This document shows, piece by piece, positions 20,297 to 33,051 of a stretch of 64,000 nucleotides of DNA. Below the pieces are notes generated by a model. It saw only the letters and a list, made by a program, of their open reading frames with translations. It was not told the origin of the DNA and did no database searches. This DNA comes from Escherichia coli (lineage in GTDB: Bacteria > Pseudomonadota > Gammaproteobacteria > Enterobacterales > Enterobacteriaceae), in NCBI RefSeq assembly GCF_013122565.1, contig NZ_CP053258.1; one strand, written 5' to 3'. Position 1 is the stretch's first letter, and every line of letters begins with the position of its first letter. A program made the position numbers and the translations under genes.

Positions 20297-22855
20297 TTAT
20301 CCCTTAATGACGAACGCGTAGTAGTTGCCGCCTTCCGTTGCGCCAACAAGCAGGACATGGTTCAGCGCAAGTTTCATCGACTGGCGTACAAAATTCACAC
20401 GCTCATCAAAGAATTCCACCGTATTTGGAATCGCAGGTACTGCCTGCTTCTTAATGCAGTCAGTAATCACGGCGAGGTTAAGCAAACCAGCGGCAGAGGC
20501 GACAAAACCAAAGCAAGCGTTGTAGTTCACTACCGGCACCGCCGGGTTTTGCGCAGCGAAGGTGTTGTAAATGGCGTCAATTTCGATACGAGAATGGTCA
20601 TCGCTGCCGTTGCTGGTACCACAGACCAAATCAATATCGCCAGCAGAGATGCCCGCATGCGTAAGGGCGCGTTCAATGGCCAGCGCCATCGACGCGGATT
20701 TTTCTTCCAACAATGAGGCGTCGAAGTAGGTATTACTACATGACTTACCGTAGCCCACCACTTCCGCGAGAACCTCAGCGCCACGCGCCGCAGCCAACTG
20801 TGGATCTTCCAGCAGCAGCATGCAGGCACCCTCGCCCGGAACATAACCCTGCGGATCTTTACCGTAAATTTGATAGTCGCTCGCCTCAGCCGTCATGTGG
20901 ATCTTTTGCGTCACCGCATCCATATACAGCGACATAGACGGGAAGTACTCATCCGCGCCGCCAACCAATACCTGCGGTTGCAGGTTCTGCCGGACGATTT
21001 CATAACCGTAGGTCAGCGCGCCCAGCGCCGAGTTTTCCCCTGTCGCAAGCGTAGTGGTATACCCTTTGATCCCTTCAGAGATCCCGCAGAACGTTGGGAT
21101 CGCATTCATCAGCGAGCCAGGAAATTCCGACGTACGTACTTTGCGTGGATCGGGTTTCAGACTTTGCAGATATTTGTAGGTGGTTTCCTGCGGACCGCGG
21201 GACATCCCCATGATCATGCCCAGCTCATCGCCATCGCGTTTGATTTTACGCTTCGCCTGTTCCAGCGCTTCGGTGAGTGCGATCAGGGCAAACGTGCCGC
21301 CACGGGTCGCTTTACGCTGATCGAAACGACGCAGGTGTTTACGCGGCTCCAGCCCGGAAACCTGGAACGTTTTAAAGTTGCTTGCCGTTTCCGGAAGCGT
21401 AGCGTCGCTGAAGCTGTACTCTTCATCAAACAGCTCGGCAAACTGGTTTGATTCATCCAGCACGGCCAGCAGCTCTTTGGCTTCTTCCAGTGTATCGTCC
21501 GGGAAGGTTACGCTACCCAGTTCAACGTGGTGGTCCTGCGCCCAGATGTTTTCCAGAACCTGGTTGAGCGTGTGGCCTATTGCGGATACTGCACCGACGC
21601 CCGAGATAGCCACACGCTTCGAATCATAGGTACTGACCGGAATGGACGCGGGCTCCATGCTCAGGATCATGCAGCAATTGTTGCCGCCGAAGGCATAGTT
21701 ATTCTTCATGAAGATGTTCACTTTGCGATCGCGAAATTCATTCGGCACATAGTCCAGATCGCAATTCGGGCGTGCCTGGCTGAAATTCAGCGTCGGCAGT
21801 ACGCGGTTGTCCGGCAGTGTTGCCAGACAGGCAATCAGTTCCACAATCCCCGCTGCGCCAATGTTGTGGCCAAAGTAAGATTTGGTGGAGCTCACCAGCA
21901 GTTTATCGTGGTTAGCGAAGACCTTTTTCATTGCCAGCGTTTCGATACGGTCATTGGCTTCGGTACCCGTACCGTGCGCGTTGACGTAATCGATTTGCTC
22001 CGGGGTTACGCCCGCATTTGCCATTGCCTTGTTCATGACCTGCACCGCTCCGCTGGCACGCGGATCTGGCCCGGTTTCATGGAAAGCATCGCAGGAAGTG
22101 GCGTAAGAGAGGATCTCACCATAAATGGTCGCCCCGCGTGCTACGGCGTGCTCATACTCTTCCAGCACGATAGCGCCAGCGCCTTCACCAATCGACATAC
22201 CGGACTGACCCGAGAACGGCGTACAAGTGTCTGGATGCATGACATTCAGTGCGTAGAATCCGGCAAAGGTCGGCAGATAGATGGGCTCGGTACCTACTGC
22301 CAGCATGGTTTTGCTTTTACCATTCTGGATGTAGTCAAAGGCCATCCCCACGGCGTTCGGGCTGGCGGTACACGCGGTCGCCACCAGTTCAACCCCGCCC
22401 TGTAAGCCCAGCAGCGTTGAAACGCTGGAACAACATGATGAGAACGCGCCGGAAAAAAGTGCTTTGCGCAGCGAGAAATCTTCCATGCGCTGTTCGAACA
22501 GCGGTAAAAAGGCCTCTGTACCCGCGGAGGAAACACCGACGATCATGCCTGTTTCTTTGAGAGTGTCACGGCTATCCATCAGGCCGGCCTGACTCAGCGC
22601 ATCTTTACCCACTTTGTAGGCCCAGAGCGCTGCGTTATCCAGTGAATCGATAACATCTTCGTTCAGATCGGAGTATTCAATGTCATGCAACACTTCTGCC
22701 GCACGCGCATTTTCAAACCATTTTGCAAAGCGTTCGCTATCCTTAACGCCATTTTTTTTATTTAATAATGCTTCCCGGAAATCCTGAATATTTTCCGCCA
22801 GTGAGGACAAAATCCCCAGCCCGGTAATAACAACTCTTTTCCTGTTCGTTTTCAT
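20297..22855 (-). CDS. Fused ketosynthase / chain-length-factor-like protein (KS-CLF), 852 aa
   Basis: N-terminal half has TACTAS Cys, HGTGT and GHNIGAAG motifs; C-terminal half is KS-like but lacks the active-site Cys. Confidence 0.8.
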   Translation of the reverse strand: MKTNRKRVVITGLGILSSLAENIQDFREALLNKKNGVKDSERFAKWFENARAAEVLHDIEYSDLNEDVIDSLDNAALWAYKVGKDALSQAGLMDSRDTLKETGMIVGVSSAGTEAFLPLFEQRMEDFSLRKALFSGAFSSCCSSVSTLLGLQGGVELVATACTASPNAVGMAFDYIQNGKSKTMLAVGTEPIYLPTFAGFYALNVMHPDTCTPFSGQSGMSIGEGAGAIVLEEYEHAVARGATIYGEILSYATSCDAFHETGPDPRASGAVQVMNKAMANAGVTPEQIDYVNAHGTGTEANDRIETLAMKKVFANHDKLLVSSTKSYFGHNIGAAGIVELIACLATLPDNRVLPTLNFSQARPNCDLDYVPNEFRDRKVNIFMKNNYAFGGNNCCMILSMEPASIPVSTYDSKRVAISGVGAVSAIGHTLNQVLENIWAQDHHVELGSVTFPDDTLEEAKELLAVLDESNQFAELFDEEYSFSDATLPETASNFKTFQVSGLEPRKHLRRFDQRKATRGGTFALIALTEALEQAKRKIKRDGDELGMIMGMSRGPQETTYKYLQSLKPDPRKVRTSEFPGSLMNAIPTFCGISEGIKGYTTTLATGENSALGALTYGYEIVRQNLQPQVLVGGADEYFPSMSLYMDAVTQKIHMTAEASDYQIYGKDPQGYVPGEGACMLLLEDPQLAAARGAEVLAEVVGYGKSCSNTYFDASLLEEKSASMALAIERALTHAGISAGDIDLVCGTSNGSDDHSRIEIDAIYNTFAAQNPAVPVVNYNACFGFVASAAGLLNLAVITDCIKKQAVPAIPNTVEFFDERVNFVRQSMKLALNHVLLVGATEGGNYYAFVIKG

Positions 22856-22928
22856 GAATAATACCTGTCAATCCCGCCTATTGGGGTTAATTTAAGCCGC
22901 GTAAGCTATAGTCACGCGGCGATATTCA

Positions 22929-24089
22929 TTACGCAGCGCTTTTATTTTTTGACGCGTCGATATAACTGTGCTCAGTTGGGCTAACCAACATGCTCAGGTT
23001 ATAAATAAACGGCATACATTTTGATTGCGCCGGAATAATTCCGTGAGCAGTTTGAATTTCGTAGCCGCTGATGTCAGACCAGGCGTAATCATTATCCAGC
23101 AGAGTCAGGGCAATGAAACGCTGCAACGCTGGGGAAAAGAGTGCCTTCACGATATAGCCCACGTCTTGACCTTCCACCAGCACACGATCGCCAGCCTCAA
23201 TGCCTTCGCATTCTTCCTGAGCGATCATGCCGATGAGTTTATTACCGGTATACTCCTGGGAGAGCTCTGTCACCGCGTCCTTGCCAATAAAATCATCTTT
23301 GTCGTACTGCACCGCCCACTGCATCTGCAACTGAACCGGATTCACTGCCTGACCTTCCCAGAGGCTGGCATCCCAGCACGGATTTTCGAGGCGTACGATT
23401 TTTTGATAATCCAGGCCGCCGGTCTGCATCAGGTATTTCTCGCCGACGGTTAACAGTTTTTCCCACTGCTCCGCCAGTTTCGCCTGCTCACCGATGGTCA
23501 TGTACGCATACTCACCGTGTTTACCACAGCGGAAGATCAGCAGATCCTCCTCGGTATTCATGTATTCGTAGTAAGGCAGGCCAATAACGTCAAAGCCATG
23601 AATTTCAGACATGATCTCCCAGGAGTATGGGCCTTCGAGCAGGATTGCCCCCCAGTTGTTTTCCCGCATATCCTGAATTTCAGGCATCGATTGAATATCC
23701 AGTTCTTCCGCTTTTTCGAGAATGGTATTCATGCTGGCGATCAATTCGGCAGCCGAAATATCTTCTGAAAGCAGGTAATAACCGTCAATGCTGCACAGCA
23801 CATAGACGTCTCCGCGAATGGTGCCCTCTTCATTCAACACCAGTGAGTAGATTGCCTGCTCATCACGAATGATGGAGACATCTGCGGAAACCAGCTGGTT
23901 GATCAGCGCCCAGGCATCATCGCCCATGACGCTAACAATAGAGAGGTGAGAATAGTCCACCAGCAGCGCGTTTTCACGAACGGCTTTATATTCGGTCATA
24001 GCATCGTGATAAGAAGAAGGTAGGGTACGGTTGTTATATACCCCCATTACCGCATTATTTTTCAAGTGAAATTCAGCAAGAGATTTCAT
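22929..24089 (-). CDS. GcvT-like aminomethyltransferase-family (folate-binding) protein, 386 aa
   Basis: Overall resemblance to glycine-cleavage T family N-terminus; assignment tentative. Confidence 0.5.
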   Translation of the reverse strand: MKSLAEFHLKNNAVMGVYNNRTLPSSYHDAMTEYKAVRENALLVDYSHLSIVSVMGDDAWALINQLVSADVSIIRDEQAIYSLVLNEEGTIRGDVYVLCSIDGYYLLSEDISAAELIASMNTILEKAEELDIQSMPEIQDMRENNWGAILLEGPYSWEIMSEIHGFDVIGLPYYEYMNTEEDLLIFRCGKHGEYAYMTIGEQAKLAEQWEKLLTVGEKYLMQTGGLDYQKIVRLENPCWDASLWEGQAVNPVQLQMQWAVQYDKDDFIGKDAVTELSQEYTGNKLIGMIAQEECEGIEAGDRVLVEGQDVGYIVKALFSPALQRFIALTLLDNDYAWSDISGYEIQTAHGIIPAQSKCMPFIYNLSMLVSPTEHSYIDASKNKSAA

Positions 24090-24124
24090 AAACGTGTCCT
24101 GATAATTAATTCTTTAATAAGTAG

Positions 24125-24406
24125 TTAATCGTTGTTCTTTTGAATAACGAAGGTGGCCAGACTATTGATACTGCGCATATAGGACGGGTCGTCACTTTCG
24201 CTGATCTTGATATCAAATACTTTATCCAGCAGAACGACAATTTCCGTTGCATCGACGGAGTCCAGTTTAAAACCATTACCAAACAGCGCAGTATCATCAT
24301 CAATTTGCGCTTCATCGCGTTGAATATTCAGTCGCTGGATGATCTCAGTTTTAATGGTCATCAGAACTTCTTTACGCTGTTCAATAGCGTCATTCATGGT
24401 AGACAT
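24125..24406 (-). CDS. Acyl carrier protein
   Basis: FKLDSVDATEIVVLLD phosphopantetheine-attachment motif; small acidic protein. Confidence 0.75.
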   Translation of the reverse strand: MSTMNDAIEQRKEVLMTIKTEIIQRLNIQRDEAQIDDDTALFGNGFKLDSVDATEIVVLLDKVFDIKISESDDPSYMRSINSLATFVIQKNND

Positions 24407-24427
24407 AATATTTACTCTCTTATTGGA

Positions 24428-24976
24428 TTACTTGGTTTCACGGAAATTGATAATGGTGCCCTGACTAATCAGCTTTTTACCGACGTACGCGGTCACGGAA
24501 TAGTGTTTAAAGCCACTGGCATCCGAAAAAGCCAATTTGCTGACAACATCAATAGAATCACCCGGATAGGCGATATCTTTAAATTTCAGGTTCTGAGCAG
24601 CCAGCACGCCGCGTACCTGGCTGCGCCGGGTACGGATAATCTCCAGCATTTCAGGGCGGTGAATGCGTGCGTGAATATCACGTAACGACTTCAGCTCTTC
24701 CTCAAAACGTTCGCGCCAGATATCGCAAATGTCGGTCAGGAAAGAGAGATACTCGCTGGCCTGGCCGAAGATTTCCGAAATAATCACCCCGGGCATAATC
24801 GGATCTTCCGGGAAATGCCCCAGTAGATACGGTTCGTTATAGGTGACGTGCTTCACGACACTGACAAAGCCATTTTCACCGTATTTATAATCTGCAATTT
24901 TATCGACCATCAGCAGCGGCTGACGCCAGCCGCCCATTTCGAGGAAGATTTTCGAAGGAATCGTGTATTTGGACAT
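24428..24976 (-). CDS. FabA/FabZ-like hot-dog beta-hydroxyacyl-ACP dehydratase
   Basis: HFPEDPIMPGVIISEIFGQA matches the FabZ catalytic His region. Confidence 0.65.
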   Translation of the reverse strand: MSKYTIPSKIFLEMGGWRQPLLMVDKIADYKYGENGFVSVVKHVTYNEPYLLGHFPEDPIMPGVIISEIFGQASEYLSFLTDICDIWRERFEEELKSLRDIHARIHRPEMLEIIRTRRSQVRGVLAAQNLKFKDIAYPGDSIDVVSKLAFSDASGFKHYSVTAYVGKKLISQGTIINFRETK

Positions 24977-24979
24977 AAA

Positions 24980-25744
24980 TCACCGCATGACCAGGCCGCC
25001 ATCGATAACGATGGTCTGGCCGACAATGTAGCTGGAGGCAGAGGAACTTAAGAAGACGATGGTGTTCGCCACTTCTTCACATTTACCCAGACGGCGTAAC
25101 GGGATGGTACTGGTTACCGCACGGACCACTGCGCGGGATACTTTTTTCACCATTTTCGATTCAATCATTCCCGGTGCGACCGCGTTGACGCGCACGCCCC
25201 AGGGTGCCATTTCTGCTGCCAGCGTGCGGGTGAAGCCTAGGATCGCCCCTTTTGACGCGCTGTAATTCGCCTGACCGACGCTTGGGATCAGCGCTGCAAT
25301 AGAGGCAACGTTAATAATGGCGGGATTTTCTGCCGCACGAAGCAACATCAGCGCGTCTTTCGTCAGACGGAAAATGCTGAACATGTTGGTTTCGATAACT
25401 TGGGTGAAATCCTCATAGCTCATCGAGGCAAACAGGCTGTCTTTAACGATGCCCGCGTTATTCACCAGCACATCAATCTTGCCAGCTTCGCGCTCTATCT
25501 GTTCGCACAATGCGCTCACACTCTGGGGGCAGGCGAGATCGCACTGCACAATATGCAGTTTATCGCCTGCAGGATGGCTTGCTTTCAGCGCCGTTAATTG
25601 CACGTCGTTGGATTTATAGAGCGCATAAACATCGCAGTTCTGCTCCAGATATTTTTCACAAATACCCAGTCCAATATCACCACTGGCTCCTGTCACCAGT
25701 ACGGTTTTTTCATTTAAATCATTATATTTGTACATATTCATCAT
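24980..25744 (-). CDS. 3-oxoacyl-ACP reductase-like SDR (FabG family)
   Basis: TVLVTGASGDIG Rossmann motif, NNAG, YSASK catalytic Tyr-Lys; start set at internal Met to avoid overlap with PPTase. Confidence 0.85.
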   Translation of the reverse strand: MMNMYKYNDLNEKTVLVTGASGDIGLGICEKYLEQNCDVYALYKSNDVQLTALKASHPAGDKLHIVQCDLACPQSVSALCEQIEREAGKIDVLVNNAGIVKDSLFASMSYEDFTQVIETNMFSIFRLTKDALMLLRAAENPAIINVASIAALIPSVGQANYSASKGAILGFTRTLAAEMAPWGVRVNAVAPGMIESKMVKKVSRAVVRAVTSTIPLRRLGKCEEVANTIVFLSSSASSYIVGQTIVIDGGLVMR

Positions 25745-25754
25745 ATATGTTGAG

Positions 25755-26123
25755 TTAATAAACGATGACAGTCGCAATGGCGTGGGTACGGCAATGCGAA
25801 ATACTCAGGGAGTTATTTTGCAACCCCTGCCCGAGAAAAATTTCTTGTAGTCTTCCGGAAATAACGAAATAAGGTGCTTTGGCCGCATCATGCTTTATTT
25901 CAATATCCTGGAAACGTACGCCATCACGAAAACCACAACCAATCGCTTTAACTAACGCTTCTTTCGCCGCCCAGAATCCAGAGGCCCGTTCATAATCAGG
26001 TTCTGCAGGATTAATGAGTAAGCGCTCATGAGCAGTATAAACACGCTCATAAAAAGCCATCTCTCCATTAATAATGGCTTTGGTTATTCTGGCAATTTCA
26101 ACAATATCTGTTCCTATTCTCAT
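25755..26123 (-). CDS. AcpS-type 4'-phosphopantetheinyl transferase (holo-ACP synthase)
   Basis: [14 protein letters not shown]-terminus and [11 protein letters not shown], both AcpS-like; 15 nt after tpsB stop with AAGGA SD. Confidence 0.8.
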
Positions 26124-26138
26124 TAGTCTCGTTATCCT

Positions 26139-27758
26139 TTACATTTGGTACGAAAAATTAAAATTTATATTCACCCGATCAATATCTAATGTCGCCGGGT
26201 ACTTTAATGGGGTAGAAACGGAAAAGTTATACTCAAGACTTTTTATGTTTCCATCAATACCAACTGCCGCGCCCACCAGTGATTCATCGCCATAAGAAGC
26301 GTCCTGATACACTTGCCCAAAATCAAGACCGGCATAATAATTAGCTTTCATTCCAGGCAAAGGAAATGCCAGCGTATTTTTTATATAAAAACCATCATTC
26401 CCTGACAAACCTACGCTATTTTCAAACCCGCGAATACTCCAACGATCGCCAACTGTAATTTGATCTTGCAAAGTCAGTTCACACGGTGCGTACTGGGCAA
26501 AAAAAGCGGTATTGTAATATCCATTATCTATTTGTCGGGTATAGTTACCCTCAAAATTAAAGATATTGCTTACCGGGCTAACGTCGCCATATTGCATATT
26601 CGGCGTTTTTTCACCACCGAACCAAGTTAAAAAGCGTTGCCACGAGAGGGTTGAATCCCAGAACGCGCCGGGTAACTGTTGCTTATAATTTAGCCCCAGC
26701 TTGATATTTCCCATATCCCGCGCCTGTAATGTCAGCTCCTCACCATTAAGCGTGTAATTCGACTTTCGTCGAATGAGTTCTGCACTCCCGGCGAATTTTT
26801 TTGTTTTATCGCGATAAACGGTACGCGTCGCCTTTGCGCTCAAGTATTCGCTGGTGCCAACATAATCCAGCGAGATGTACGAAAGCGGAATCACCTGCTG
26901 CGATTTACTTTTGCTATAGAAAAAGCCGTACTCCCAGTACCCCACCGGAATGGAATAATAGCTACTGACGTTTTCGTACTGTCCAGTAGTACTACGCGTA
27001 CCGGCGAGATAAAACAGATCCCCCATTTTCGCTGGATTAAACAGATAACCCACCGCGGTTGTCTGGTAACGGCCCGTTTCTTCATCGCCCCAATTGTTGT
27101 AACTTGCCCGAACGCTCCAGTTTTTGCCCCGGTGTGTATCAATATGAACGATGCTGTAACCATCCCGTGTTCCCGGTTCAATATTAATTTTCACATCAAC
27201 GTCAGGTACTCGCTGAAGATTTTCCAGCCCCTGTTCAATATCGCGAATATTGAGAATATCGTTACGCTGAAAAGGTAACATCCATTCACTGATATCATTA
27301 CCTTCCACAATCGTTTTTTCTATCTTCCCGGCATTAACCTGGAAACGTAGCTTGCCTTTAGAAATATCCTGCGAAGGGATACTAATTCGCGTTGTGATAT
27401 ATCCGGCATTAATATAATAATCCTGCAAGGCAGCAGCAATTTTTTGCACACCAGCACTACCGACACAACGTCCGGCAATCGCTTTTTGCACTTCAGAAAT
27501 AAACTGACCATCCAGAAAGTTATCTTCCAGTTCAATCCGATTAATGATAAAGCAATTCTTTTCCTGCGGTAGATCACTCAGAGTAAACGCATTACGTTGT
27601 GCATTTGAGTAAACATCTTTTTTTTCTAATTTATGCGCGCGTAACGTGCTTTCATCTGCATTTTTTTGCTGCTTGATCAAATTATCAATACTGTCTTTCG
27701 CTGCAACCTGAAAACAACAAAGAATGAGCAGCAAACCAAAATTAAATCGTAATTGCAT
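26139..27758 (-). CDS. TpsB outer-membrane transporter (ShlB/FhaC/HecB family)
   Basis: Signal peptide, POTRA-region length, loop-6 SIRGFE (VRGY/F) motif. Confidence 0.8.
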   Translation of the reverse strand: MQLRFNFGLLLILCCFQVAAKDSIDNLIKQQKNADESTLRAHKLEKKDVYSNAQRNAFTLSDLPQEKNCFIINRIELEDNFLDGQFISEVQKAIAGRCVGSAGVQKIAAALQDYYINAGYITTRISIPSQDISKGKLRFQVNAGKIEKTIVEGNDISEWMLPFQRNDILNIRDIEQGLENLQRVPDVDVKINIEPGTRDGYSIVHIDTHRGKNWSVRASYNNWGDEETGRYQTTAVGYLFNPAKMGDLFYLAGTRSTTGQYENVSSYYSIPVGYWEYGFFYSKSKSQQVIPLSYISLDYVGTSEYLSAKATRTVYRDKTKKFAGSAELIRRKSNYTLNGEELTLQARDMGNIKLGLNYKQQLPGAFWDSTLSWQRFLTWFGGEKTPNMQYGDVSPVSNIFNFEGNYTRQIDNGYYNTAFFAQYAPCELTLQDQITVGDRWSIRGFENSVGLSGNDGFYIKNTLAFPLPGMKANYYAGLDFGQVYQDASYGDESLVGAAVGIDGNIKSLEYNFSVSTPLKYPATLDIDRVNINFNFSYQM

Positions 27759-27846: not shown

Positions 27847-30800
27847 TTACATGCCGACAATAGTACCGGTGTTGTCAGTTTCGTTTGCTTCTAACGCTAA
27901 ACCGTAGAAGCCACCGAGAACAGCGTCTTTACCGCTATTCGTAACCTTATTTGCCGATACGCCAGCGACACCATAACTCAGCATATTGAGGTAGTTATAA
28001 ATATTACCGGTGGTTTTAACACCCAGAGAATAATCACCCACAATATTTCCACGGTTATTAATGTCATTCACGGCATTGATCGCGATGGTTTGTCCCAACA
28101 TATTACTGTTGCTGTTGTTGGTAACATACTTCTGCGTATCAATAGTCAGCGCAGTTCCCGCCACAATGTCTTTAAAGTTCTCAACACCGTTCAGGGCATT
28201 AATGGTCAGCGCGTTGTCCGCTGCGATGGCATTACGGTTATACAGCGTGCCTTTCAGAACATTGAAATGCACATCCCCTTTACCGCTGATCCAACCATAG
28301 TTAGTGACGCTGTTATCAACGTTCAGATCTAGGTTTTTGTCAGACGCAATCACGCCCGTGGCGGTATTGTCTTCCAGACGACCATCACTGGCGTTACTCA
28401 ACGACGCCGCATAAACATCGAGATTACCGGCGCTGTAAGTGGTGGCATAGTTGTTGTAGAACATACCAGCCGCACGGATGATGGCATCAGCCCCACTGCT
28501 AAGAAGCGCGCGGGTATTATCCAGCGTTCCCCTGGACAGCAGATTAAGCGGACCATTTTCAGCGATGATGCTGCTGTTATTGTTGTAGACGTTCTGAGCA
28601 GAAAGCGTGACACCTTCTTTACCCACAATGCCACCAACGTTGTCAGTAATACCGAAAACTTCACCGTTATAACGCAGGAAGTTATTCCCGTCGCGGTTTT
28701 CGAGGTTGCCGCCAGCGTTAATAACCAGCTTTTTATTCGCCGCGATCAGCGCAGTGTTGTTGTAAATCGTCGATTTAGCATCGACAGAAACATTCTCACC
28801 GGCAATCAAACCATAGGCGTTGTCTACAATGTTCGCCGTCAGAGTCACGTCGCCCGTTTCAGAGGTCAGCGAGCCCTTAAAACTGTCGTAGTTGCCCGTC
28901 AGTGCCAGCGTGACGTCGTCATAACCACGAATTTCACCGTAGTCGTTGTTCAGATTGCTGCCTTTTACAGACAACACGCCGTTCAACGCATGCAGCTTAC
29001 CGCGGTTGTTACCCACGTTGCCCTTCGAATCGATAATCAGATCGCCTGTCGCTTCGATGGTCGCGTTATTGTTGGCCACGCTATTTGCCGTTAATGCGAC
29101 ATCCCCATAACCCACCATATAGAGATAGTTATACAGGTTGCCTTTGGTTGTCACGTTCAGGTCAACATCACTGACAATGTTGCCACGGTTGTTGATATCG
29201 TTAACCGCGTTAATAACGATATTCTGCCCCACCATATTGCTGTTGGAGTTGTTGGTCACATGGCGATTGGTGTTCATCGTCAGGTCGCCGCCAGCAGAAA
29301 TATCCTTCCAGTTTTCAATACCGTTCAGTGCTGCAATGTCCAACCCCTTTTCAGCCGCAATAGTATTGCGGTTGTACAGGTTGCCATTTTTCACCGTGAC
29401 ATCAACATCACCTTTACCGCTGATCCAGCCGTAGTTGGTAAGGCTATTCACCACTTCCAGTGACAGATTTTTGTCAGATGCAATGAACCCGGTCGCATTG
29501 TTATCGATCATCGTACCGCTGCTGCTGTTTTGCAGCGTGGTCGCGTCGATATCCAGGTTGCCCGCACTCCAGGTGGTAGCGTAGTTGTTGTAATACGTTC
29601 CGCCAACCTGAATAGATGCATCCGCCCCGCTGATGACCAGAGCTCGCGTGTTGTCGAACGTGTTCTGCGCCTGCAGAGTCAGAGGACCATCCTCAGCGAT
29701 AATACGGCTGTTGTTGTTATAGATGTTCTGCCCGGAAAGCTCGATGCCTTCCTTGCCGACCATTCCACCCGTTTGCTGAGGCATGCCGAAGTACTGACCA
29801 TAAGCATTACCGAAGTTATTGCCATCGCGGTTTTCGATACTGCCGCGCGCATTTATCTTCAGTTTTTTGCTGGCCACGATCAGCGCTGTGTTGTTATTGA
29901 CGCCAGACATCGACTCCATCGTGATGTTCTGCCCCATCATGAAGCCGCCGTGGTTATCCACGGAGTTGGCTAACAGGGAGATATCACCCTCTTCAGAGCT
30001 GATCACGCCAATATTATTGGTCAGGCTGCCGCCAACGGCGACTTCAATACCCTGCTTACCGCTGATCCCCCCGGTATCGTTACGCAGAGAGCTTCCCTTG
30101 ATAATCACTTTGCTGTTGGACAGAATTTTGCCCGCATAGTCGTCGATCGTGCTGTAACTTGACAGGGAGACGTTGCCATTAGACGCAATCTGTCCGCCAT
30201 TGTTATTGATGTTGTTCGCACCAATTTCTACGCCGGTATCTGCAATAATGCCCAGAGAGTCAGAACTGCCGGTATCGGCGGTTTTGGTTGAACCATTATT
30301 TACGCTACCTGCCGCACCAATAACGATATGCCCGGTGGACGAACGGATCAGACCTTTGTTGTTATCCACATTACCGTTACTGATAATGGCGATATCGCCA
30401 GTGGTCTGGATATCACCGCTGTTGTTATTCAACGCGCCTGATTCAAGCCCCACATAACCGCCGCGAATCTGACCATTGCTGTTGTTGAGCGTTCCGGTTT
30501 TCAGCGCCACGAGCCCCGCTTCAATCCCGACAGAACTCCCTTTACCAGAGTTAATCAGCGTGGCGTTATTGGTATCAACCGCCAGCATACCTGCTGCGGC
30601 GAGCTTGCCGTTGGTGTTATCAATCGTGCCACTGTTAACGTAGATATCGCCCATCGTAGAGATGTTACCCGCACGGGTATTCACGATAGTATTCTTGTTG
30701 GTATTAAGCGAGATAGTGCCTACAGATGTCACCGTACCGGTGGTGTTATCCAGAGTACCATTTGTTGTCAGGTTGATCGTGCTTGCAGACTGAATCTGGG

Positions 30801-31659
30801 CGTTACTGTTTAACAGGTTACCTTTGGAATCGATGCTGACACCATTAACCCCCCCAGCAATAACGCCGAGGTTGCGAACCCCCACACCTTTCTCGGTGCT
30901 GACCAGACTGATTTTGTTCGCATACATTCCGCCCAGTTTGGCAACATCTACGCTGTAACCGTTACGGGACCCCGTGGCGGATACGCTACCGGTCACCTGG
31001 CCTGCGGCATTAACATAGTTATTGCCAGCAACAACGTTCAGCTCATCGGCAGACACTTTGCCGTTAACTACCACGTTACGGGACAGAATTTCTGTCGGGC
31101 TGGCGTTATCCAGTTTACCGAGCGTAATGGTACCGCCGTTCACGGAGTAACCGGCCAGCTTGTCATCCTGGATATCCGGCGTCCCGGTGGTTAAGGTAAG
31201 TTTACCTGTATTGATTGAACCGCCACCGTTTACAGTAATACCATTCGGGTTGGCAATAATCAGATCCGCTTTATCCCCTGCAACTTCCATCATCCCATTA
31301 ATGGTTGAAGGATTTTTGGAAGTAACCTCATTCAGGATCACCTTCGCCGACCCGGAGGTCAGATTACTGTTTCCCTGAATATTTCCGGCAAGTGAAGTAC
31401 TGGATTCATTAGCGCTGTTATTGAAAACGACACCATTTTTATCAACGTTTAGGTTATCCCAGATATTATGAGATAAACCGCTACCGTTAGGTTTGTTGAT
31501 GTCAACGACTGGCACACCATTGGCGTTATATACCGTTCCATTTTTTATGACTAATCCCGCCGCTTGAGAAGCTACAGGAAAAGACAACATCATAAGTATA
31601 GCAATAGGGGTTAATGCTTTACCCACCGTTGCTTCCTTACTTAAATTTATCATCGCCAC
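27847..31659 (-). CDS. TpsA exoprotein (filamentous haemagglutinin/haemolysin-like), 1270 aa, with internal tandem duplication
   Basis: N-terminal TPS domain with ANPNGI motif; Asn/Gly/Thr-rich beta-helix repeats; no recognisable C-terminal toxin domain. Confidence 0.85.
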   Translation of the reverse strand: MAMINLSKEATVGKALTPIAILMMLSFPVASQAAGLVIKNGTVYNANGVPVVDINKPNGSGLSHNIWDNLNVDKNGVVFNNSANESSTSLAGNIQGNSNLTSGSAKVILNEVTSKNPSTINGMMEVAGDKADLIIANPNGITVNGGGSINTGKLTLTTGTPDIQDDKLAGYSVNGGTITLGKLDNASPTEILSRNVVVNGKVSADELNVVAGNNYVNAAGQVTGSVSATGSRNGYSVDVAKLGGMYANKISLVSTEKGVGVRNLGVIAGGVNGVSIDSKGNLLNSNAQIQSASTINLTTNGTLDNTTGTVTSVGTISLNTNKNTIVNTRAGNISTMGDIYVNSGTIDNTNGKLAAAGMLAVDTNNATLINSGKGSSVGIEAGLVALKTGTLNNSNGQIRGGYVGLESGALNNNSGDIQTTGDIAIISNGNVDNNKGLIRSSTGHIVIGAAGSVNNGSTKTADTGSSDSLGIIADTGVEIGANNINNNGGQIASNGNVSLSSYSTIDDYAGKILSNSKVIIKGSSLRNDTGGISGKQGIEVAVGGSLTNNIGVISSEEGDISLLANSVDNHGGFMMGQNITMESMSGVNNNTALIVASKKLKINARGSIENRDGNNFGNAYGQYFGMPQQTGGMVGKEGIELSGQNIYNNNSRIIAEDGPLTLQAQNTFDNTRALVISGADASIQVGGTYYNNYATTWSAGNLDIDATTLQNSSSGTMIDNNATGFIASDKNLSLEVVNSLTNYGWISGKGDVDVTVKNGNLYNRNTIAAEKGLDIAALNGIENWKDISAGGDLTMNTNRHVTNNSNSNMVGQNIVINAVNDINNRGNIVSDVDLNVTTKGNLYNYLYMVGYGDVALTANSVANNNATIEATGDLIIDSKGNVGNNRGKLHALNGVLSVKGSNLNNDYGEIRGYDDVTLALTGNYDSFKGSLTSETGDVTLTANIVDNAYGLIAGENVSVDAKSTIYNNTALIAANKKLVINAGGNLENRDGNNFLRYNGEVFGITDNVGGIVGKEGVTLSAQNVYNNNSSIIAENGPLNLLSRGTLDNTRALLSSGADAIIRAAGMFYNNYATTYSAGNLDVYAASLSNASDGRLEDNTATGVIASDKNLDLNVDNSVTNYGWISGKGDVHFNVLKGTLYNRNAIAADNALTINALNGVENFKDIVAGTALTIDTQKYVTNNSNSNMLGQTIAINAVNDINNRGNIVGDYSLGVKTTGNIYNYLNMLSYGVAGVSANKVTNSGKDAVLGGFYGLALEANETDNTGTIVGM
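27972..30240. repeat. Two tandem ~1134-bp repeat units inside tpsA (approximate bounds)
   Basis: Antisense ORFs at 28061-28300 and 29138-29434 end in the same SPLPLIQP peptide 1134 bp apart; corresponding TpsA segments (~370 aa each) align with high identity. Confidence 0.7.
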
Positions 31660-31922
31660 TAACGTTTTCCTTATTGATGCTATTCATTTTGGACATGCAG
31701 ATCACTTTTGATGACTCACGGAATATCAGCAAAAATGATTGCGGCAAATCCTATCACCTGGCGCAATAAAAAATCACGAAAAATAAGCTGAAATAAGGAT
31801 TCAAAAAAACAACTAAGAGTTATTGTTTTTTCATCGAACGGCGAAGAACCTAACTTACTAAAACACAATAATTTAAAAGTCCCCCATCCTTGCTCCTTGG
31901 GTGATAAAAAATCCAATTTAGA

Positions 31923-31973
31923 GGATGTCTGAAATGATATGTAGTTTTCTGTACGACATCATTTCAGACATCC
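31923..31973. repeat. Perfect 16-bp inverted repeat ggatgtctgaaatgat / atcatttcagacatcc, 19-nt spacer
   Basis: Read directly; ~265-315 bp upstream of tpsA start within a 1.4-kb AT-rich intergenic region. Confidence 0.9.
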
Positions 31974-33051
31974 GAATAAAACAACAAAGTTGGTGAGTTA
32001 CAATTAATTTAAATCTTATTATTTGATTAACAAAGCATCATCATTACTGCATCTTATTCTCTATATCTTTTACGTCGGGGTAGATTCTTTATGGTCATTA
32101 CGGGCAGGCGACATTTCATTATATTACCATTTGCATTCACGCTTGTAACCCTTAAGAGTTATATAAAAAGGAAAGAGTTCTTGCTCATGGTATTACTGAG
32201 ATCGGATTAACCATGAGGTTAGCTATATAGAGAGCTTTGGCTTTGCGACAATTGGCTTAAGCAGCCACATTATGCCTGGCTTATCGTTGAAAGGGAGAAA
32301 GAAGAGCAAAACGGTTTGGCAAGCTTTCATTCCCATCTAATAGCAATCACCGCTATACATCATCCCTTAACGTATTCTGGTCTTCATAAAAATGTTATTC
32401 TAAATTAAAGATTGTAATGATTTTAATAATGTTGTTATTATTTTGCAACAAATCAATATAACACAATGATTATTCGCGATTTTTTATTAGTTAAGAGGAA
32501 TTGTTTTTACAGATTGCGCTACAATTCCGCTCATTTCTCACCACAGGAAAAGCTGAAGTAATCTTAAATGACTGTATTAACCCTTTTCTCCGCTGCCAGC
32601 ACTCTTAAATATCGTTGTTTTATTCTTATAAAAACGGCTTTTTTGACATAAAAAGTAATAGGTTCAGCCATTATGCAGAATTTACAACCTGAGAAAATCG
32701 CAAAAAACACTCTTATTCAGAATAAAACTCTGTTTATCATCTTTCGGTAAGCATTAAATTACTATATTACCGTTCAACATGAGTATGAATGAAAATTCAG
32801 TTGTTATACATGTGATGAATGTCATATATTGTGCTCATCGATTGCAGGACATCGCTATTCTTTTAGAGATACAGATATCACGCTGTTACTCTCTAATATA
32901 AAGAACACGCAAAGATTAGTTGTGTTACTGCAGTTGTTATGTCGCATATGGAATGCCCATTGTTACATCTTTAGTAAAAAGCTTTATTCACTTTCAAAAT
33001 TTTTACTCCATGAAGATAGGCTGTTTTGCTGCAAGCAATTGAGTTAGTGCA

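What the first reader, a model, noticed from the sequence alone, without database searches (positions are those of the whole stretch)
27972..30240. Internal ~1.1-kb tandem duplication within tpsA
Two consecutive ~370-aa segments of TpsA are near-copies (for example NNTALIVASKKLKINARGSIENRDGNNFG versus NNTALIAANKKLVINAGGNLENRDGNNFL). Antisense ORFs ending in an identical peptide 1134 bp apart show the repeat at DNA level. Such repeats allow length variation by recombination and may vary between isolates.
Basis: seen in the sequence. Interest (0 to 1): 0.5.

Follow-up and report, generated by a model that had tools for sequence, protein, structure and literature searches.

The report
Old tandem duplication inside OtpA exoprotein
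The secreted E. coli protein OtpA carries two diverged head-to-tail copies of its last 378 amino acids, an old and stably inherited duplication that a few isolates have lost again; this is an ordinary way for such fibre-like proteins to change length.

Summary
The gene at 27847-31659 (minus strand, 1270 aa) is the E. coli orthologue of otpA (O157:H7 Sakai ECs_1282), with otpB just downstream. Its C-terminal 756 residues are two ungapped tandem units of 378 aa (1134 nt): aa 515-892 and 893-1270. The diagonal score is 1054, against 76 or less in shuffles.

The units are not near-copies: 56% aa and 61% nt identity, synonymous sites saturated, and no shared exact run longer than 17 nt.

Most homologues in other Enterobacterales have one unit. 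A unit tree places one duplication before the split of the E. coli, Pseudocitrobacter, Kosakonia, Enterobacter and Aeromonas forms. Both units are under purifying selection. AlphaFold models them as one continuous beta-solenoid (pLDDT 96).

Length variation exists but is rare. Of 381 complete E. coli genomes carrying the gene, 379 keep the 3.8-kb form and two are IS-truncated. Three 892/893-aa forms from draft or metagenome assemblies are clean copy1-to-copy2 chimeras with three different crossover points. For the two checked at DNA level, these are exact 1134-nt in-register deletions at 5-13-nt microhomologies.

This is an ordinary feature of a known protein class.

The parts
27847..31659 (-). 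otpA coding sequence (1270 aa plus stop; GTG start), a TpsA exoprotein and the orthologue of O157:H7 Sakai ECs_1282
   Evidence: ORF list. It is 97.7% nt and 98.4% aa identical to ECs_1282, with the same length and gene order. ECs1282-1283 are named otpAB in bioRxiv 10.1101/2020.04.13.038984.
31177..31470 (-). Core of the TPS secretion domain (aa 64-161), including the NPNGI motif
   Evidence: TIGR01901 adhes_NPXG, E=7.9e-22, 77 bits against a cutoff of 29.1. PF05860 is precomputed on the 98%-identical P0001.
30118..30879 (-). Non-duplicated beta-helical shaft (aa 261-514) between the TPS domain and unit 1
   Evidence: AlphaFold model is all-beta solenoid with pLDDT above 90. There is no offset-378 similarity here.
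28984..30117 (-). Repeat unit 1 (aa 515-892). Its last ~30 residues, at the inter-unit junction, have diverged from the family's C-terminal tail.
   Evidence: Diagonal segment; HMM domain 515-892; u1 clade in the unit tree; tail comparison.
27850..28983 (-). Repeat unit 2 (aa 893-1270). It ends at the stop codon and keeps the conserved C-terminal tail seen in single-unit homologues.
29825..29837 (-). 13-nt run TCGAAAACCGCGA (ENRD codons) that is identical in register in both units. This is the unit-1 side of the deletion junction of the single-unit allele P0007.
   Evidence: In-register exact runs and the breakpoint interval at gene nt 1822-1835.
28691..28703 (-). Unit-2 partner of the 13-nt microhomology used in the P0007 deletion
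29624..29628 (-). Unit-1 side of the deletion junction of the single-unit allele P0008 (within the GGGGC.GATGC / SGAD codons). The partner lies at 28490-28494.
   Evidence: Breakpoint interval at gene nt 2031-2036.
26139..27758 (-). otpB, the cognate TpsB outer-membrane transporter (539 aa), 88 nt downstream of otpA
   Evidence: ORF. RefSeq annotates a ShlB/FhaC/HecB family protein in the 99.9%-identical locus. POTRA_2, POTRA_3 and ShlB Pfam hits are recorded on the 539-aa orthologue.
28061..28300 (+). Spurious antisense ORF ending in TSPLPLIQP. Its twin is at 29138-29434.
   Evidence: It mirrors the conserved GWISGKG codons of both units (D2 repeat).

Best explanation
The feature is an old, fixed, in-frame tandem duplication of the C-terminal 378-residue module of OtpA, the exoprotein of the E. 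coli OtpAB two-partner secretion system.

The ancestral protein, still the common form in Klebsiella, Leclercia, Pantoea, Mixta and most Kosakonia, has about 890 aa: signal peptide, TPS domain, beta-helical shaft and one terminal module. One duplication doubled that module. It happened before the split of the forms now found in E. coli, Pseudocitrobacter, Kosakonia sacchari, Enterobacter and Aeromonas veronii.

Both copies fold as consecutive stretches of one right-handed beta-solenoid. The protein therefore became a longer rod that displays the module's surface features twice. I infer about 18 extra coils, or roughly 8-9 nm, from the 20-21-residue coil period. Both copies have been kept by purifying selection.

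The copies now share only 61% of their nucleotides, so they are a poor substrate for ordinary homologous recombination and the two-unit gene is stable. Rarely, an in-register exchange or slippage at a short identical run removes exactly one unit and leaves a chimeric single-unit protein that should still fold.

Shown here: the duplication, its age, selection on both copies, the solenoid model, and the chimeric deletion alleles. Inferred: the functional gain (a longer or bivalent fibre) and the molecular route of the deletions.
For: - **Repeat.** There is a single sharp diagonal at offset 378 aa, with score 1054 against 76 or less in shuffles, and no gaps.
- **Age.** Identity is 61% at nt level and 41% at third codon positions. 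Between the copies dN is 0.36 and dS is 1.6-2.8, which is saturated.
- **Family architecture.** Most homologues are 885-935 aa with one unit that ends at the C-terminus. Two-unit forms are 1270 aa (period 378) or about 1290 aa (period 399-401, one extra 21-aa coil).
- **One duplication.** In an NJ tree of units, all first units form one clade and all second units form another. Remote single-unit proteins branch outside both. These outgroups are equally similar to u1 and u2 in the core, but match only u2 in the last 42 residues.
- **Selection.** dN/dS between alleles is 0.08-0.11 for each unit and 0.03-0.07 for the N-terminal part.
- **Fold.** The AlphaFold model of aa 261-1270 has pLDDT 96.3 and is all beta-solenoid, with one short helical insert per unit, 378 residues apart. 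Coil periodicity is 20-21/41 residues. Fil_haemagg repeats lie at equivalent positions in both units.
- **Stability.** Of 381 complete E. coli genomes with the gene, 379 carry the full-length form; the sampled rows are 3812-3814 nt. The other two are truncated by IS1 and IS903B.
- **Rare unit loss.** P0007 and P0008 sit in the same otpA-otpB-acpS locus. At 474 informative nt sites they switch once from copy 1 to copy 2: 153:1 then 9:293 for P0007, and 198:14 then 10:230 for P0008. The junctions are at gene nt 1823-1835 and 2032-2036. P0035 switches at a third position.
- **Identity as OtpA.**
Against: - No function is known for OtpA. The review PMC5422565 lists it as 'Unknown', so the 'longer or bivalent fibre' benefit is an inference by analogy.
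- The exact end points of the original duplication cannot be fixed. Similarity fades over about 30-40 residues on either side of the inter-unit junction.
- The single-unit chimeras come only from short-read or metagenome assemblies, and I could not inspect reads.
- Some single-unit proteins near the base of the u1/u2 clades (P0041, P0043, P0044, P0045) could be either ancestral forms or old chimeras, so the tree root is not fully secure.
Confidence: 0.85

Rival explanations
1. The repeat is a contingency locus. Frequent RecA-dependent unequal recombination between near-identical units switches OtpA length within populations, giving antigenic or phase-like variation.
For: Three independent single-unit chimeras exist. 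Other length classes occur in relatives, at 1129, 1023, 1205 and 1231 aa.
Against: - The units are only 61% identical at nt level, and the longest shared exact run is 17 nt. From my own knowledge, this is below the roughly 20-30 nt of perfect homology that efficient RecA recombination needs in E. coli.
- None of 381 complete genomes carries a single-unit allele, and no three-unit form appears in either protein search.
- In the protein collection, each single-unit cluster has 1 member sequence, against 1460 in the full-length E. coli cluster P0001.
Confidence: 0.05
2. The apparent duplication is only the generic periodic similarity of beta-helix coils (low complexity), or an assembly artefact that expanded one unit into two.
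For: The whole passenger has a 20-21/41-residue periodicity and is rich in N and G. Tandem Repeats Finder reports nothing here.
Against: - Offset 378 stands alone, with 262 identities against 156 for the best coil-period offset. It extends ungapped over 375 residues.
- The two units differ at 39% of nucleotides, so they cannot be an assembler's copy of one another.
- The same 3.8-kb gene is present in 379 complete genomes.
- TRF's silence is explained by its 500-nt period limit.
Confidence: 0.01
3. The 892-aa E. coli forms are the ancestral state or mis-assemblies, so there is no true unit-number variation within E. coli.
For: They are known only from short-read assemblies (Logan, an NCBI TPA assembly) and one metagenome contig. 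Single-unit proteins are the ancestral type in the wider family.
Against: - Each is 95-98% identical at nt level to copy 1 of the window allele on the left of one point and to copy 2 on the right. An ancestral form cannot show that pattern, because the copies are 39% diverged.
- The switch points differ among the three forms.
- The copies share no k-mer longer than 17 nt, so de Bruijn assemblers working at k=21-31 have no path to collapse them.
- P0007 was recovered from two runs in different archives, ERR10491137 and SRR29490122. P0008 was recovered from SRR24033007 and GCA_031590855.1.
Confidence: 0.07

Closest known systems
OtpA/OtpB two-partner secretion system of E. coli O157:H7 (ECs_1282/ECs_1283, O-island 47; Choi, Dawson & Bernstein 2007, J Bacteriol 189:3452)
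   Same: It is the same gene. Identity to Sakai ECs_1282 is 97.7% nt and 98.4% aa, the length is the same 3813 nt, and the neighbours are the same: the divergent loc6 fimbrial operon upstream, and otpB, acpS and fatty-acid-type genes downstream. The Sakai allele has the same two units. The closest genome is the non-O157 strain PapRG-04-4, at 99.9%.
   Different: Nothing structural differs. The window holds a non-O157 allele. I could not read the two primary OtpA papers, so I cannot say whether the internal duplication was already described. The papers I could read do not mention it.
EtpA, the TpsA adhesin of enterotoxigenic E. coli, with four C-terminal repeat modules (PMC11463764; PDB 8vbb)
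   Same: Both have a TPS domain followed by a beta-helix whose C-terminal part is built of large tandem repeat modules. In EtpA the repeats act together in glycan binding, which is the model for 'more modules, more avidity or length'. EtpA is the best, though weak, structural match of the OtpA model.
   Different: There is no detectable sequence relationship between the repeats (13% identity; Foldseek E=0.033, TM 0.29). OtpA has two units of 378 aa rather than four modules. No EtpC-like glycosyltransferase is encoded next to otpAB, and the gene order is A-B rather than B-A-C. The ligand of OtpA is unknown.
Repeat-containing TpsA fibres in general (FHA/FhaB with its ~19-20-residue coil repeats; HMW1/HMW2)
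   Same: The beta-solenoid passenger is made of about 20-residue coils (TIGR01731 and PF05594 hits; periodicity). Length evolves by gain and loss of whole coils or blocks of coils. For example, the Enterobacter orthologues have a 399-401-aa period, which is 378 plus one 21-aa coil.
   Different: The event here is a single block duplication of about 18 coils that has since diverged. It is not an array of short near-identical repeats. The comparison with FHA and HMW rests on my own knowledge and was not tested here.

Membership tests
TpsA exoprotein (type Vb / two-partner secretion) | N-terminal TPS secretion domain with the NPNG-type motif | tested here: met
   TIGR01901 adhes_NPXG at aa 64-161, 77 bits against a cutoff of 29.1. 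The NPNGI motif is visible in the translation. PF05860 is recorded on the 98%-identical P0001.
TpsA exoprotein (type Vb / two-partner secretion) | Adjacent cognate TpsB transporter (POTRA domains plus ShlB-type barrel) | tested here: met
   A 539-aa ORF lies 88 nt downstream on the same strand. RefSeq annotates it as ShlB/FhaC/HecB family in the 99.9%-identical locus. PF08479, PF17287 and PF03865 are recorded on the 539-aa orthologue. NCBIfam itself gave no hit.
TpsA exoprotein (type Vb / two-partner secretion) | Sec signal peptide | not tested
   The N-terminus MAMINLSKEATVGKALTPIAILMMLSFPVASQA/AG looks like an extended signal peptide (read). No predictor was run.
TpsA exoprotein (type Vb / two-partner secretion) | Beta-helical (solenoid) passenger | tested here: met
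   The AlphaFold model of aa 261-1270 has pLDDT 96.3 and consists of short beta strands in a coil pattern throughout.
TpsA exoprotein (type Vb / two-partner secretion) | TpsB-dependent secretion across the outer membrane | not testable with these tools
   This is reported for O157:H7 OtpAB by Choi et al. 2007 and Choi & Bernstein 2009, as summarised in PMC5422565.
OtpA orthologue (ECs_1282 of O-island 47) | High identity, the same length and conserved synteny with the named gene | tested here: met
   Identity is 97.7% nt and 98.4% aa, the length is 3813 nt, and the flanking genes are the same.
Discrete tandem intragenic duplication | One dominant, ungapped diagonal far above chance, with units that behave as separate lineages in a tree | tested here: met
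   Score 1054 against 76 or less in shuffles. The u1 and u2 clades are separate.
Hypervariable (contingency) repeat locus | Near-identical repeat DNA that offers long perfect homology | tested here: not met
   The units are 61% identical at nt level, and the longest shared exact run is 17 nt.
Hypervariable (contingency) repeat locus | Frequent copy-number polymorphism among isolates | tested here: not met
   None of the 381 complete genomes with the gene carries a unit-number variant. Only three chimeric single-unit forms were found in the large protein collection.
EtpA-type repeat-module adhesin | Homology of the repeat modules to EtpA, and a partner glycosyltransferase (EtpC) | tested here: not met
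   Foldseek gives E=0.033 at 13% identity. No glycosyltransferase gene lies in the locus. The resemblance is architectural only.

The most novel reading that the evidence does not exclude
Unit number may be a selected trait and not a neutral relic. Under this reading the terminal 378-aa module is the working (ligand-binding) surface of OtpA. Doubling it would make a bivalent or longer fibre, and recurrent in-register loss of one unit would tune reach or avidity in particular hosts. The protein might act together with the product of the lipid/polyketide-type gene cluster, which is invariably linked to this TPS pair in E. coli, Enterobacter, Klebsiella and Aeromonas.
Probability: 0.15. Interest if true: 0.45.

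Novelty: new member of a known kind. Interest (0 to 1): 0.25.

Why it matters
There are three modest consequences.

1. **Domain map.** OtpA is a model substrate for two-partner secretion studies whose function is still unknown. This work gives it a clear map: a 514-aa N-terminal part plus two 378-aa modules. It also provides natural single-module variants that could be used to ask what the module does.

2. **How these fibres change length.** The case shows how beta-helical secreted fibres change length. They gain a block of about 18 coils once, and later lose it in register at short microhomologies. The repeat is otherwise stable, so it should not confound typing or assembly.

3. **A possible lead to function.** The side observation that the TPS pair always heads a conserved lipid/polyketide-type cluster may be a better lead to OtpA's function than the repeat itself.

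Tried and rejected
- **Tandem Repeats Finder** found nothing relevant, because its longest period is 500 nt.
- **Pfam** could not be run on the full protein because of the 1200-aa limit. I re-ran it on aa 261-1270.
- **PDB sequence search** with the two units gave no hit at E of 0.01 or below.
- **Foldseek against PDB** gave only a weak EtpA match. Long solenoids superpose poorly, so I did not pursue fold searches further.
- **The primary OtpA papers** (PMC1855909, PMC3107007) are not held. A literature search for OtpA/OtpB returned mostly zebrafish orthopedia papers. Whether the duplication has been published therefore remains unchecked.
- **Junction-spanning queries** from the two deletion alleles found no matching complete genome.
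- **The two complete genomes lacking a full-length gene** turned out to be IS1 and IS903B truncations, not unit losses.
Diagonal scores are negative upstream of aa 515. In the Enterobacter and Kosakonia orthologues, similarity does start somewhat earlier, at aa 451-503, with the 399-401 period.
- **Forms with three or more units** were looked for in both protein searches, and none was found.
- **The promoter and terminator scan** around otpAB was at chance level.
Full report
**What is there**

The finding lies inside one long ORF on the minus strand, 27847-31659 (1270 aa, GTG start). It is followed 88 nt downstream by a 539-aa ORF at 26139-27758.

A scan of every self-diagonal of the protein shows one outstanding offset: 378 aa (1134 nt) with 262 identities. 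The runners-up are offsets 41, 21 and 20, with 156 identities or fewer, and these reflect the coil periodicity of the beta-helix. The best ungapped segment aligns aa 515-889 with 893-1267. It has 209/375 identities (56%), 71% positives and a BLOSUM62 score of 1054, against 51-76 for the best diagonal in ten shuffled proteins.

At DNA level repeat finder reports two families with 1134-nt spacing. The two antisense ORFs 28061-28300 and 29138-29434 both end in TSPLPLIQP, 1134 nt apart. Tandem Repeats Finder is silent only because its maximum period is 500 nt.

- The units are window 28984-30117 (aa 515-892) and 27850-28983 (aa 893-1270, ending at the stop). Upstream of aa 515 the offset-378 scores are negative.
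- The units are not near-copies. DNA identity is 61%, and identity by codon position is 69%, 74% and 41%. Between the copies dN is 0.36 and dS is 1.6-2.8, which is saturated. The longest exact run shared between the copies is 17 nt.

**What gene it is**

The window is E. coli. The gene matches 381 of 5426 complete E. coli genomes. The best match is strain PapRG-04-4 at 99.9%, and O157:H7 strains match at 97.7%.

In O157:H7 Sakai the same 3813-nt gene is ECs_1282 and its neighbour is ECs_1283. These two are the otpAB two-partner secretion system, which lies in O-island 47. Choi et al. 2007 characterised the system, and its function is listed as unknown.

The protein has the TPS domain signature (TIGR01901 at aa 64-161) and Fil_haemagg repeats at equivalent places in both units. 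Its partner is a POTRA/ShlB transporter.

**What the unit is structurally**

An AlphaFold model of aa 261-1270, built on a 76-sequence alignment, has a mean pLDDT of 96.3. It is a continuous beta-solenoid, with one short helical insert in each unit at positions 378 residues apart (aa 613-624 and 991-1002). There is no separate globular C-terminal domain.

The duplication therefore lengthens the rod. I infer about 18 coils, roughly 8-9 nm, from the 20-21-residue coil period. It also presents the module's surface twice.

No solved structure is related by sequence. The best fold match is weak: the ETEC TpsA adhesin EtpA.

**History of the duplication**

Among homologues, the common architecture is about 885-935 aa: a 514-aa N-terminal part plus one unit ending at the C-terminus. 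This form occurs in Klebsiella, Leclercia, Kosakonia, Pantoea, Mixta and others.

Two-unit proteins occur in several groups:
- E. coli and Pseudocitrobacter (1270 aa, period 378);
- Kosakonia sacchari, Enterobacter species and Aeromonas veronii (about 1290 aa, period 399-401, one extra 21-residue coil).

Forms with a partial second unit also exist, at 1129, 1023, 1205 and 1231 aa.

In a neighbour-joining tree of the units, all first units form one clade and all second units another. Remote single-unit proteins fall outside both. These outgroups resemble u1 and u2 equally in the core. In the last 42 residues they resemble only u2, and in the first 42 they mainly resemble u1. Unit 2 thus kept the ancestral C-terminal tail, while the sequence around the new inter-unit junction diverged.

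This pattern fits one old duplication that is now shared by several genera, some of it probably through horizontal transfer. A scan of 1.84 billion representative proteins found only a handful of clusters with a full unit, and none with three.

Between alleles, dN/dS is 0.08-0.11 in each unit, against 0.03-0.07 in the N-terminal part. Both copies are therefore maintained by selection.

**Does the length vary?**

In complete genomes it does not. Of the 381 genomes, 379 carry the full-length two-unit gene. The other two are truncations, one by IS1 (strain SCU-316) and one by IS903B (strain A16).

The large protein collection, however, holds three proteins of 892 or 893 aa (1270 minus 378 is 892). 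Two of them, P0007 and P0008, are E. coli alleles in the same locus: fimbrial operon, otpA, otpB, acpS and so on.

At 474 nucleotide sites that distinguish copy 1 from copy 2, each allele switches cleanly once.
- P0007 reads 153:1 (copy-1-like to copy-2-like sites) before gene nt 1822 and 9:293 after nt 1836.
- P0008 reads 198:14 before nt 2031 and 10:230 after nt 2037.

Each is an exact 1134-nt in-register deletion. The P0008 junction lies in about 5 nt of identity within GGGGC.GATGC.

P0035 (893 aa, from a metagenome) switches at a third position, unit residues 219-223.

These forms cannot be ancestral, because each half is 95-98% identical to the corresponding copy while the copies themselves differ by 39%. 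Assembly collapse is also unlikely. The copies share no k-mer above 17 nt, and each E. coli variant was recovered from at least two data sets.

The events are rare and use microhomology, which fits the low DNA identity. In the P0007 lineage otpB and a downstream gene are also split, so that copy of the locus may be decaying.

**Comparison with what is known**

This is a known protein (OtpA) in a known class (TpsA beta-helical exoproteins). Large C-terminal repeat modules are established in EtpA, where four modules cooperate in glycan binding (PMC11463764). Coil-level repeats are typical of the FHA family (own knowledge; TIGR01731 and PF05594 hits).

OtpA's units show no detectable sequence relationship to EtpA's repeats, and no glycosyltransferase gene accompanies otpAB. 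The resemblance is architectural. I could not read the primary OtpA papers, so I cannot say whether the duplication has been noted before.

**Verdict**

The finding is a real, discrete, ancient and stable tandem duplication of the terminal beta-solenoid module of OtpA, with rare in-register unit loss. It is ordinary for this protein class and of low-to-moderate interest. It is useful mainly as a domain map and as a source of natural single-module variants for a secretion-model protein whose function is still unknown.

Noticed in passing
window about 20297-27758 (minus strand) and further downstream; also L011, L012, L013 and L014: otpA-otpB heads a tightly packed same-strand cluster: acpS, SDR/ketoreductase, FabZ/FabA-like dehydratase, ACP, a GCV_T-like aminomethyltransferase, a double ketosynthase (852 aa), a second ketosynthase, a hypothetical protein, and ABC transporter genes. 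The same TPS-plus-lipid/polyketide-type cluster recurs in Enterobacter mori, Klebsiella aerogenes (with a single-unit TpsA) and Aeromonas veronii, each in a different chromosomal neighbourhood. This suggests a mobile module with a functional link that has not been explored.
   Followed up: partly
L002 (strain SCU-316) and L015 (strain A16): The only two complete E. coli genomes carrying the gene without an intact copy have IS-mediated truncations. IS1 leaves only the last 594 nt of otpA. IS903B removes the C-terminus of otpA together with otpB and most of the downstream cluster.
   Followed up: yes
L005 and L006 (P0007 lineage): In the lineage with the single-unit allele P0007, otpB is split into 378-aa and 152-aa ORFs, and the GCV_T-like gene into 167-aa and 227-aa ORFs. 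The whole locus may be decaying there. The P0008 lineage has all genes intact.
   Followed up: no
window 31660-33051: A 1.39-kb AT-rich intergenic region (33-42% GC, against about 50% in the flanking genes) separates otpA from the divergently transcribed fimbrial (loc6) operon. The promoter-like matches there are not above chance. The regulation of both operons was not examined.
   Followed up: no
homologues P0009-P0042: Two-unit orthologues in Enterobacter, Kosakonia and Aeromonas have a period of 399-401 aa, which is the E. coli unit plus one 21-residue coil at the junction. Other relatives carry only part of the second unit: 1129 aa (unit positions about 129-378) and 1023 aa (about 209-377). 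Others have internal deletions (1205 and 1231 aa). This indicates repeated gain and loss of coil blocks in this family.
   Followed up: partly
window 27850-27945 (aa 1239-1270) and alignment A1: The C-terminal tail, including the glycine at the second-to-last residue, is conserved across single-unit and two-unit family members (G1009 is nearly invariant in A1). The equivalent stretch at the end of unit 1 has diverged. A role for the tail, such as capping or retention, is untested.
   Followed up: no
cluster of P0002: Many E. coli draft-genome entries of the divergent P0002-type allele are 'partial' proteins of about 803-812 aa on contigs of about 30.3 kb. Assemblies therefore break repeatedly at the same place inside the gene, and the cause was not examined. 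The full-length P0002-type allele also occurs in Pseudocitrobacter.
   Followed up: no
L013 1-8049 (Aeromonas veronii): A second, unrelated TPS pair lies divergently next to the OtpAB-like pair in Aeromonas veronii. It consists of a 2939-aa TpsA with DUF637 (CdiA-like) and its TpsB.
   Followed up: no
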